From Escherichia coli (GTDB lineage: Bacteria > Pseudomonadota > Gammaproteobacteria > Enterobacterales > Enterobacteriaceae): DNA of 64,000 nt. Position numbers and translations under genes: made by a program. The stretch lies in NCBI RefSeq assembly GCF_003018255.1, contig NZ_CP027440.1; one strand, written 5' to 3'. The notes below the pieces were generated by a model. The model was not told the origin of the DNA, did no database searches, and was given only the letters and a program-made list of their open reading frames with translations. How positions within the stretch are numbered: the first letter of the stretch is position 1; the number at the start of each line of letters is the position of its first letter. Positions 2,290 through 2,329 of this stretch are shown piece by piece.

Positions 2290-2329
2290 GTGACAGTTAT
2301 ATGTAAGGTTTATGACAGTTTTATGACAA
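2290..2329 (-). promoter_or_regulatory. PhoB-binding Pho boxes of the pstS promoter
   Basis: On the minus strand: CTGTCATAAAACTGTCATA followed by CTTACATATAACTGTCAC, tandem CTGTCAT-type repeats about 60-100 bp upstream of the pstS ATG. Confidence 0.8.

What the first reader, a model, noticed from the sequence alone, without database searches (positions are those of the whole stretch)
2290..2329. Tandem Pho boxes abut the end of the fimbrial operon
The pstS promoter Pho boxes are intact and lie only about 140 bp beyond the adhesin gene stop (2471), with a weak hairpin (CGGTGT-GAGGA-ACACCG, 2442-2458) in between. Read-through from the fimbrial operon into the pst promoter, or PhoB influence on the end of the island, is conceivable.
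Basis: partly seen in the sequence, partly recalled or inferred. Interest (0 to 1): 0.25.

Follow-up and report, generated by a model that had tools for sequence, protein, structure and literature searches.

The report
pstS promoter with extra upstream PhoB site
The flagged motif is the textbook phosphate-starvation promoter of pstS sitting just after a fimbrial gene cluster, which is ordinary, but the short gap between them also holds a conserved stem-loop and a previously unremarked, well-conserved extra PhoB site plus an IHF-like site.

Summary
Window 2290-2329 (minus strand) holds the two tandem Pho boxes of the canonical PhoB-activated pstS promoter, 141 nt after the stop codon of the last gene of an lpf/stg-type fimbrial operon. 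The junction is 100% identical to E. coli 042, and both the promoter and the operon's position between glmS and pstS are published. Three points are new. (1) Every island version and the K-12 empty site become homologous at the first TGTCA of the distal Pho box, so the promoter is the fixed edge of a replaceable spacer. (2) The "weak hairpin" is a 12-bp stem (about -18 to -19 kcal/mol), present in all 15 junction lineages examined and with compensatory changes, but it lacks a U-tract. It is therefore a terminator-like or 3'-stabilising structure, not a proven strong terminator, and read-through stays possible but unsupported. Both keep fixed spacing and are conserved across genera while the surrounding spacer has diverged. 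The best reading is an extended pstS upstream regulatory module resembling the inverted upstream boxes of phoE. Function is inferred, not shown. Interest is low to moderate.

The parts
2290..2307 (-). Proximal Pho box of the pstS promoter (CTTACATATAACTGTCAC), occupying the -35 position
   Evidence: (15.6 bits). Identical to K-12. It ends 9 nt before the -10.
2312..2329 (-). Distal Pho box of the pstS promoter (TTGTCATAAAACTGTCAT). Its first TGTCA is the point where all spacer variants become homologous.
   Evidence: 23.4 bits, the best site in the window. Boundary shown. It equals the strongest PhoB ChIP-seq site in K-12.
2274..2279 (-). -10 hexamer TATTTT of the pstS promoter
   Evidence: Invariant in all lineages.
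2221..2233 (-). Shine-Dalgarno AGGAGA and the ATG of pstS
2345..2357 (-). IHF-like core AATCAAAAAGTTA, an exact match to WATCAANNNNTTR, centred 32 bp upstream of the distal-box centre (about -84 from the inferred TSS)
   Evidence: 4 exact matches in 64 kb, P = 0.016 in the shuffled spacer. A core with at most 1 mismatch sits at 30-32 bp in most island-type lineages, including E. hormaechei and the MAG, and none is present in K-12. Conserved block in A6. The consensus itself is recalled from memory.
2384..2401 (+). Third Pho box in inverted orientation (TGTCATCTTTTTGTCATG), 73 bp centre-to-centre upstream of the distal box (about -126 from the inferred TSS)
   Evidence: one of only two TGTCA-N6-TGTCA matches in 64 kb (0.12 expected); 18.5 bits, above 52 of 59 ChIP-confirmed sites, no hit in 30 shuffles; present at 71-74 bp in 9 of 15 island lineages; 17 of 18 positions invariant against 15% for the surrounding spacer.
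2436..2464 (-). Stem-loop 6 nt after the adhesin stop codon (12-bp stem, 5-nt loop), followed by UCUUACGCAUUUUUG. Terminator-like or 3'-end stabiliser of the fimbrial transcript.
   Evidence: An equivalent hairpin is present in every lineage. It fails the U-tract criterion.
2471..3541 (-). LpfD/StgD-like fimbrial adhesin gene, last gene of the operon
3552..7450 (-). Usher (3552-6074), chaperone (6099-6830) and major subunit (6878-7450) of the lpfO113/stg-type operon
7709..7744 (-). glmS terminator on the island side (GC stem flanked by an A-tract and a U-tract). Homology to K-12 ends just after the glmS stop codon at 7757-7759.
1183..2223 (-). pstS
   Evidence: 746.6 bits to the PstS equivalog.

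Best explanation
Window 2290-2329 is the canonical PhoB-activated promoter of pstSCAB-phoU. Two tandem Pho boxes occupy the -35 region, and phosphorylated PhoB binds them under phosphate limitation and recruits sigma-70 RNA polymerase. This part is established knowledge and is shown here by identity to K-12. The promoter forms the fixed downstream edge of a replaceable glmS-pstS spacer, which in this genome (E. coli 042 type) holds a four-gene lpf/stg-type fimbrial operon. The 141 nt between the adhesin stop codon and the boxes carry three conserved elements. (1) A stable stem-loop lies 6 nt after the stop codon. It most likely defines or protects the 3' end of the fimbrial mRNA, and because it has no U-tract, termination is probably incomplete (inferred). 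(2) A high-scoring Pho box in inverted orientation lies at about -126. (3) An IHF-like core lies at about -84. I infer that (2) and (3) form an extended upstream regulatory module of pstS. An extra PhoB~P dimer would bind upstream and an IHF-induced bend would bring it to the promoter-bound PhoB/RNAP complex, modulating (most likely enhancing or sharpening) pstS induction, as proposed for the upstream inverted Pho box of phoE. The module belongs to pstS regulation rather than fimbrial regulation.
For: Promoter identity: and the K-12 ChIP-seq/RNA-seq data in which pstS is the strongest PhoB site and about 770-fold PhoB-dependent. Boundary at the first TGTCA. Operon identity and locus: and the literature. 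Hairpin: dG -18.0 for the 29-nt stem-loop and -19.4, z -5.6 for its 51-nt context, two compensated pairs and none broken among three sequences, and a hairpin 4-9 nt after the stop codon in all lineages despite different sequences. Inverted box: 18.5 bits on a matrix built from 59 ChIP-seq sites, second best in 64 kb, no hit in shuffles. It is identical or near-identical in O113-type E. coli, E. fergusonii, an E. whittamii-like genome and Pseudocitrobacter, with substitutions only in the 4-bp linker, and 13.8-15.5-bit sites lie at the same 71-74 bp offset in C. sedlakii, a MAG and E. hormaechei, where the flanks are unalignable. 17 of 18 columns are invariant against 15% for the rest of the spacer, and no shuffle of 20,000 gave such a run. 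IHF-like core: exact here, at most 1 mismatch at a fixed 30-32 bp in most lineages, absent from K-12. IHF effects on the pst promoter are on record, by title only. Precedent checked on sequence: K-12 phoE has inverted boxes 46-56 bp upstream of its promoter box, and one of them is the ChIP-seq motif instance for phoE.
Against: There is no binding or expression data for the inverted box or the IHF-like site in any island-carrying strain. Most PhoB sites in K-12 are transcriptionally inert. Six of 15 island lineages (O157 lpf2, Superficieibacter, two Salmonella, L014, L015) and the K-12 empty spacer lack the box and still have a working pstS promoter, so the module is dispensable. The lineages share ancestry, so the conservation counts are not independent. 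The IHF consensus is short and the spacer is AT-rich (35% GC), giving a 1.6% chance expectation. In some lineages the A-run of the box can pair with U-rich runs in the RNA, so an RNA-level constraint is not fully excluded. The terminator discriminant formula was recalled from memory.
Confidence: 0.6

Rival explanations
1. Read-through coupling: RNA polymerase leaving the fimbrial operon passes the U-poor hairpin and transcribes pstSCAB, so fimbrial expression contributes to basal Pst expression or interferes with the PhoB-dependent promoter.
For: The genes are on the same strand with a 141-nt gap. No canonical intrinsic terminator was found. All post-adhesin hairpins have poor U-tails and negative discriminants, while the K-12 glmS terminator scores positive.
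Against: A stable hairpin is conserved in every lineage. In the STEC RNA-seq study the lpf operon differed 10-12-fold between groups while pstS was not listed as differentially expressed and phoU went the other way. These fimbrial operons are generally H-NS-silenced, according to that paper. pstS expression in K-12 is almost entirely PhoB-dependent. No transcript data exist for this junction.
Confidence: 0.2
2. The inverted Pho box is a transcriptionally inert PhoB site, or a fortuitous motif, and the IHF-like core is an AT-rich coincidence. Only the two promoter boxes matter.
For: Most of the 65 PhoB-bound regions in K-12 have no detectable regulatory effect. Several lineages, and K-12, do without the box. 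The IHF core has a 1.6% chance expectation in this spacer.
Against: The box is as conserved as the promoter boxes while the flanks are only 33-77% identical. It holds a constant 71-74 bp offset even where the flanks are unalignable, as in E. hormaechei. Substitutions fall only in the linker. The IHF-like core holds a constant 30-32 bp offset across genera.
Confidence: 0.2
3. The inverted box is the -35 substitute of a PhoB-activated promoter firing on the + strand, producing an RNA antisense to the 3' end of the adhesin gene under phosphate starvation.
For: The orientation of the box points into the adhesin gene, and the box is strong.
Against: No lineage has a -10 hexamer with at least 4 of 6 matches that also has A2 and T6 at 7-12 nt from the box, whereas the pstS proximal box has TATTTT at 9 nt. 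The sequence at that place is not conserved. There is no Rfam family and no ORF of note downstream.
Confidence: 0.07
4. Boundary or insulator element: PhoB (with IHF) bound at the end of the AT-rich island blocks elongating polymerase coming from the fimbrial operon, or stops H-NS filaments spreading from the island into the pstS promoter.
For: The island is AT-rich compared with its flanks (40-49% against 52-56% GC). Many PhoB sites co-localise with H-NS (Table 1). The element lies between the fimbrial 3' end and the promoter and is absent from the island-free K-12 spacer.
Against: The K-12 study found no support for regulation by PhoB sites within genes, including the roadblock hypothesis it tested. 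O157 lpf2 and Salmonella stg-type junctions carry the island but lack the box. There are no data.
Confidence: 0.1
5. The conserved blocks are RNA elements of the fimbrial 3' UTR (a structured 3' UTR or a 3'-UTR-derived small RNA) rather than DNA sites.
For: In the window the junction RNA folds better than shuffles (z = -3.35) and has a second hairpin involving the A-run of the box. In several lineages the box pairs with U-rich runs.
Against: The pairing partner changes side or disappears between lineages, and the pairing probability ranges from 0.28 to 0.76. The invariant positions are exactly the PhoB half-sites at 11-bp spacing, and the variable position is in the linker. No Rfam match. No U-tract terminator follows that could define an sRNA 3' end.
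Confidence: 0.08

Closest known systems
E. coli K-12 pstS promoter (PhoB-dependent, two tandem Pho boxes)
   Same: The sequence from the first TGTCA of the distal box through the -10, leader, SD and ATG is the K-12 sequence with 2-3 substitutions, and the spacing of boxes and -10 is the same.
   Different: Everything upstream of the distal box is non-homologous to K-12. K-12 has no site above 8.7 bits and no IHF-like core in its spacer. The window has an extra inverted box and an IHF-like core.
phoE promoter of E. coli K-12, with an upstream Pho box in inverted orientation (Tommassen et al. 1987, recalled from memory; architecture re-checked on sequence here)
   Same: A PhoB-dependent promoter with a direct box at -35 and additional inverted box(es) upstream. 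The K-12 phoE upstream region shows inverted sites of 11.5-12.0 bits, one of which is the ChIP-seq motif instance for phoE.
   Different: The offset is 46-56 bp in phoE against 71-74 bp here. The box here scores much higher (18.5 bits), and an IHF-like core lies between it and the promoter, with none within 1 mismatch found in phoE. The functional requirement is shown only for phoE (from the literature as I recall it), not here.
lpfO113 / lpf2 (O island 154) / Stg chaperone-usher fimbrial operons inserted between glmS and pstS
   Same: Same locus, gene order and strand. The major subunit and chaperone pass the NCBIfam equivalog cut-offs, and RefSeq annotates the A-C genes of a near-identical genome as lpfA/B/C-O113. 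The published locus descriptions agree.
   Different: The adhesin is a distinct allele, 84% identical to LpfD-O113 and 39-44% to the two O157 LpfD2 copies, and falls below all equivalog cut-offs. The junction spacer is 73% identical to the O113 type. The O157 junction has lost the inverted box.
Rho-independent terminators at operon ends
   Same: A GC-containing stem-loop immediately after the last stop codon, conserved as a structure with compensatory changes.
   Different: No U-tract directly after the stem in any lineage. It fails the scan criterion of at least 5 T in 8 nt and has a negative discriminant, while the K-12 glmS terminator is positive.

Membership tests
PhoB-dependent (Pho regulon) promoter | Pho box: two 7-bp direct repeats (CTGTCAT-like) with a 4-bp linker, 11-bp period | tested here: met
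   two tandem boxes at 2290-2329 on the minus strand, scoring 23.4 and 15.6 bits.
PhoB-dependent (Pho regulon) promoter | The box replaces the -35 element and lies about 10 bp upstream of a -10 hexamer | tested here: met
   TATTTT lies 9 nt after the proximal 18-mer.
PhoB-dependent (Pho regulon) promoter | Orthology to the experimentally characterised pstS promoter | tested here: met
   near-identical to K-12 from 2328 to the ATG. In K-12 this is the strongest PhoB ChIP-seq site.
PhoB-dependent (Pho regulon) promoter | PhoB binding and phosphate-dependent activation in this strain | not testable with these tools
   Needs ChIP, EMSA or reporter assays.
Auxiliary upstream Pho box (phoE-type) | Motif quality comparable to sites bound in vivo | tested here: met
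   18.5 bits, above 52 of 59 ChIP-seq sites, no hit in shuffles.
Auxiliary upstream Pho box (phoE-type) | Located upstream of a PhoB-dependent promoter in inverted orientation | tested here: met
   73 bp upstream of the distal box. The phoE architecture was verified.
Auxiliary upstream Pho box (phoE-type) | Conserved beyond its flanking sequence | tested here: met
   17 of 18 positions invariant against 15% for the flanks; present in 9 of 15 lineages at a fixed offset.
Auxiliary upstream Pho box (phoE-type) | Required for full promoter activity | not testable with these tools
   Needs mutagenesis and a reporter.
IHF binding site | Core consensus WATCAANNNNTTR (recalled from memory) | tested here: met
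   exact match at 2345-2357 on the minus strand; 4 exact matches in 64 kb; P = 0.016 in the shuffled spacer.
IHF binding site | Positional conservation in related sequences | tested here: met
   a core with at most 1 mismatch at 30-32 bp from the distal-box centre in most island lineages across genera.
IHF binding site | IHF binding and DNA bending | not testable with these tools
   Needs a footprint or EMSA. IHF effects on the pst promoter are known to me only from paper titles.
Intrinsic (Rho-independent) terminator | Stable GC-containing stem-loop downstream of the stop codon | tested here: met
   12-bp stem; dG -18.0 for the 29-nt stem-loop and -19.4 kcal/mol, z -5.6 for its 51-nt context.
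Intrinsic (Rho-independent) terminator | U-tract immediately 3' of the stem | tested here: not met
   no minus-strand site in 2330-2470; tail UCUUACGCAUUUUUG, T-score 1.95, negative discriminant.
Intrinsic (Rho-independent) terminator | Transcript 3' ends at the site | not testable with these tools
   Needs Term-seq or 3'-RACE.
lpf/stg-type chaperone-usher operon at glmS-pstS | Gene order major subunit-chaperone-usher-adhesin between glmS and pstS | tested here: met
   literature.
lpf/stg-type chaperone-usher operon at glmS-pstS | Adhesin is LpfD-O113 | tested here: not met
   84% identity. RefSeq names the near-identical protein only 'fimbrial protein'. It is below all NCBIfam equivalog cut-offs.

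The most novel reading that the evidence does not exclude
The inverted Pho box plus the IHF site form a phosphate-responsive boundary element that travels with the fimbrial operon. Under phosphate starvation, PhoB~P and IHF would insulate the pstS promoter from H-NS silencing and from transcription coming out of the AT-rich fimbrial cluster. Strains with the island-type spacer would then differ from strains with the K-12-type spacer in the threshold or strength of their Pho response.
Probability: 0.12. Interest if true: 0.5.

Novelty: new variant of a known kind. Interest (0 to 1): 0.3.

Why it matters
The pstS promoter is the reference PhoB target and Pst activity sets the state of the whole Pho regulon, which affects virulence in APEC, UPEC and EHEC. 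About 37% of complete E. coli genomes (1,986 of 5,426), and apparently all sampled Enterobacter hormaechei, carry a different upstream region from the K-12 model. That region includes a likely third PhoB site and an IHF site. If these are functional, K-12-based descriptions of pstS regulation are incomplete for many clinical lineages, and natural spacer alleles could tune the phosphate response. For the fimbrial operon, the junction shows a conserved but U-poor 3' hairpin, which bears on how lpf/stg transcripts end. None of this changes the basic picture, so the significance is modest.

Tried and rejected
(1) Residual homology between the K-12 empty spacer and the island end, which would suggest a deletion remnant: blastn with word size 7 gave only hits with E >= 0.3, so rejected. 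(2) An antisense PhoB-dependent promoter: no -10 at the right spacing in any lineage. (3) A known RNA family in 2150-2650: no Rfam match at E <= 1. (4) A conserved second RNA hairpin involving the inverted box: the pairing partner is inconsistent between lineages. (5) The sigma-70 promoter-like hit on the + strand at 2312-2340: the scan found 13 sites against 12.3 expected, so it is not meaningful. (6) Literature on PhoB control of lpf/stg, or on the junction itself: the searches found locus descriptions only. The Stg paper (PMC1595498) and the IHF/pst paper (PMID 16404567) are not held. (7) My automatic hairpin finder mis-scored the island-side glmS terminator because its A-tract pairs with its U-tract. 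That value should be ignored, and the fold shows a classic terminator. (8) Not done: island-free genomes of other genera were not sampled, so I cannot say whether the inverted-box/IHF module also exists without the fimbrial operon.

Full report
OBSERVATION. The window's minus strand carries, in transcription order, glmU and glmS (7757-9586), then a four-gene chaperone-usher operon: major subunit (6878-7450), chaperone (6099-6830), usher (3552-6074) and a StgD/LpfD-like adhesin (2471-3541). After that come pstS (1183-2223) and pstC. A Pho-box consensus search finds only three overlapping hits in 64 kb, all at 2290-2329 on the minus strand, against 0.15 expected. They are the distal box TTGTCATAAAACTGTCAT (2329..2312) and the proximal box CTTACATATAACTGTCAC (2307..2290), followed by the -10 TATTTT (2279..2274), the SD and the ATG. 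The adhesin stop codon is at 2473..2471, so 141 nt separate it from the boxes.

WHAT THE LOCUS IS. The junction is 100% identical to E. coli 042, and RefSeq annotates a near-identical genome as lpfA/B/C-O113 plus an unnamed 'fimbrial protein'. The literature describes lpf-type operons between glmS and pstS in SE11, E24377A, SMS-3-5 and O157 Sakai (O island 154), and describes lpfO113 and the 'lpfB1' operon. About 1,986 of 5,426 complete E. coli genomes carry an island with a homologous junction. Roughly 470 are of the 042 type and about 1,513 are of the O113 type, which is about 73% identical in the spacer.

BOUNDARIES. I aligned the K-12 empty site with the 042-type, O113-type and O157 lpf2 junctions. 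All four become homologous at the first TGTCA of the distal Pho box (window 2328) and are near-identical from there to pstS. On the other side, homology to K-12 ends just after the glmS stop codon. The island therefore replaces the whole K-12 spacer, including the K-12 glmS terminator, and supplies its own strong glmS terminator at 7709-7744. The K-12 spacer shows no residual similarity to the island end. The island is AT-richer than its flanks.

THE HAIRPIN. On the transcribed strand the stem is 12 bp (2464..2436). The 29-nt stem-loop folds at -18.0 kcal/mol, and its 51-nt context folds at -19.4 kcal/mol with z = -5.6. It is followed by UCUUACGCAUUUUUG. The terminator scan reports nothing on the minus strand in 2330-2470. 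A d'Aubenton-Carafa-type discriminant, with the formula recalled from memory, is negative for this hairpin and for all 14 other post-adhesin hairpins, but positive for the K-12 glmS terminator. Even so, every junction lineage from Escherichia, Pseudocitrobacter, Citrobacter, Superficieibacter, Enterobacter and Salmonella has a stable hairpin 4-9 nt after the stop codon, often with a quite different sequence. Three distinct sequences of the 042 clade show two fully compensated pairs, one G.U-to-A-U change and no broken pair. I conclude it is a selected 3'-end structure, either a partial terminator or an exonuclease block, and not a demonstrated strong terminator.

A THIRD PHO BOX. The exact pattern TGTCA-N6-TGTCA occurs twice in 64 kb (0.12 expected): in the distal promoter box, and at 2384-2399 on the opposite strand. 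I built a weight matrix from the 59 motif instances in the K-12 PhoB ChIP-seq study (PMC10294691, Table 1). With it, TGTCATCTTTTTGTCATG (2384-2401, + strand) scores 18.5 bits. That is second in the window, above 52 of the 59 bound sites, and never reached in 30 shuffles. The scan also recovers the known rbsK site at 33097-33114, which serves as a control. The site resembles the strongly bound ugpB site TGTCATCTTTCTGACACC.

CONSERVATION. One genome-contig scan and ten protein-context look-ups gave 15 distinct island-type junction lineages, all with the adhesin gene directly upstream of pstS. In E. hormaechei all eight sampled contexts of its PstS have the operon. Nine of the 15 carry an inverted box of at least 13.8 bits at 71-74 bp centre-to-centre from the distal box. 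It is identical in O113-type E. coli, E. fergusonii and Pseudocitrobacter vendiensis. It has linker-only substitutions (CGTT, CATT) in two further Escherichia lineages. Weaker boxes occur in C. sedlakii, a MAG and E. hormaechei, where the flanks cannot be aligned. O157 lpf2 keeps only an 8.5-bit remnant. K-12, Superficieibacter, two Salmonella and two other lineages have none. In the six-lineage alignment A6, the box is invariant at 17 of 18 columns and the promoter boxes at 35 of 40, while the rest of the spacer is invariant at 12 of 81 columns with pairwise identity of 33-77%. No shuffle of 20,000 gave such a run.

AN IHF-LIKE CORE. A6 shows a further conserved block, AATCAAnnnnTTA. In the window it matches WATCAANNNNTTR exactly (2345-2357, minus strand), with 4 exact matches in 64 kb and a 1.6% chance expectation in the shuffled spacer. 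A core with at most one mismatch lies at 30-32 bp from the distal-box centre in most island lineages, including E. hormaechei, the MAG, O157 and L014. K-12 has none. Papers reporting IHF effects on the pst promoter exist, but I could verify only their titles.

MECHANISM. Relative to a TSS inferred about 7 nt after the -10, the elements lie at about -30 and -52 (promoter boxes), -84 (IHF-like), -126 (inverted box) and -183 (hairpin). The simplest reading is an extended pstS upstream module in which an extra PhoB~P dimer is brought to the promoter by an IHF bend. The same matrix shows that K-12 phoE has inverted boxes 46-56 bp upstream of its promoter box, one of which is the ChIP-seq motif instance for phoE. 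That matches my recollection of an upstream inverted Pho box being needed for full phoE expression (Tommassen et al. 1987, from memory). The alternatives are weaker. An antisense promoter lacks a -10. An RNA-structure constraint is inconsistent between lineages, and there is no Rfam match. The K-12 study did not support a roadblock role for PhoB. An inert site is hard to square with the conservation. All functional statements are inferences.

READ-THROUGH. This is not refuted by sequence, because there is no canonical terminator, but it is not supported either. The hairpin is conserved. In K-12, pstS RNA is 239,097 in wild type against 310 in the phoB mutant. In STEC, a 10-12-fold difference in expression of this operon was reported without pstS among the differentially expressed genes, and phoU was lower. 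The EDL933 low-phosphate study reports pstS up 47-fold and does not mention lpf.

VERDICT. The flagged feature is the known pstS promoter next to a known fimbrial island, which is ordinary. The added value is threefold: the exact boundary at the Pho box, the conserved U-poor hairpin, and a conserved inverted Pho box with an IHF-like site, for which I found no description in the held literature. This is a new variant of a known kind, and the interest is low to moderate.

Noticed in passing
window 33097-33114 (-): TGTCACCATCAGGTCATA scores 15.8 bits and is the rbsK PhoB ChIP-seq site listed for K-12. It served as a positive control for the matrix.
   Followed up: partly
window 7709-7744 (-): The island-side glmS terminator (A-tract, GC stem, U-tract, so it looks bidirectional) replaces the K-12 glmS terminator. 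Homology to K-12 stops right after the glmS stop codon, so the DNA just downstream of glmS, where Tn7 inserts in K-12, is different here.
   Followed up: partly
window 2436-2464; L008, L006, L010, L018 junctions: Other genera keep a palindrome ATGACA-N5-TGTCAT after the adhesin stop codon. The 042 lineage has the same palindrome interrupted by a 14-nt self-complementary insertion (GGTGTTCCTCACAC), which lengthens the stem.
   Followed up: partly
L021-L028 (Enterobacter hormaechei): All eight sampled contexts of this PstS have the fimbrial adhesin upstream, with two adhesin alleles (358 and 347 aa). The operon looks fixed at this locus in that species, which suggests the arrangement is ancestral rather than a recent island.
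   Followed up: partly
L006 (QFQM01000265.1): A contig of a MAG labelled Flavobacterium psychrophilum carries an enterobacterial lpf-pstS junction, so it is probably mis-binned or a contaminant.
   Followed up: no
L019 (Pseudocitrobacter corydidari): An orphan adhesin homolog (46% identity) sits next to uxaC-like and sugar-acid genes, away from pstS and without an usher or chaperone.
   Followed up: no
window 2361-2379 (-): A T-rich run (TTTTCTTTTTCTT) between the inverted box and the IHF-like core is moderately conserved. In the RNA it can pair with the A-run of the box in some lineages.
   Followed up: partly
L005 38571-44710 (O157 Sakai): In the RefSeq annotation the lpf2 version has two adhesin-like genes and a pseudogenised chaperone. 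Its junction retains the hairpin and a near-consensus IHF-like core but has lost the inverted Pho box.
   Followed up: partly
window 2312-2340 (+): A sigma-70-like pair, ATGACA-17-AATTAT, overlaps the distal Pho box on the opposite strand. It is not above the chance expectation of the scan.
   Followed up: no
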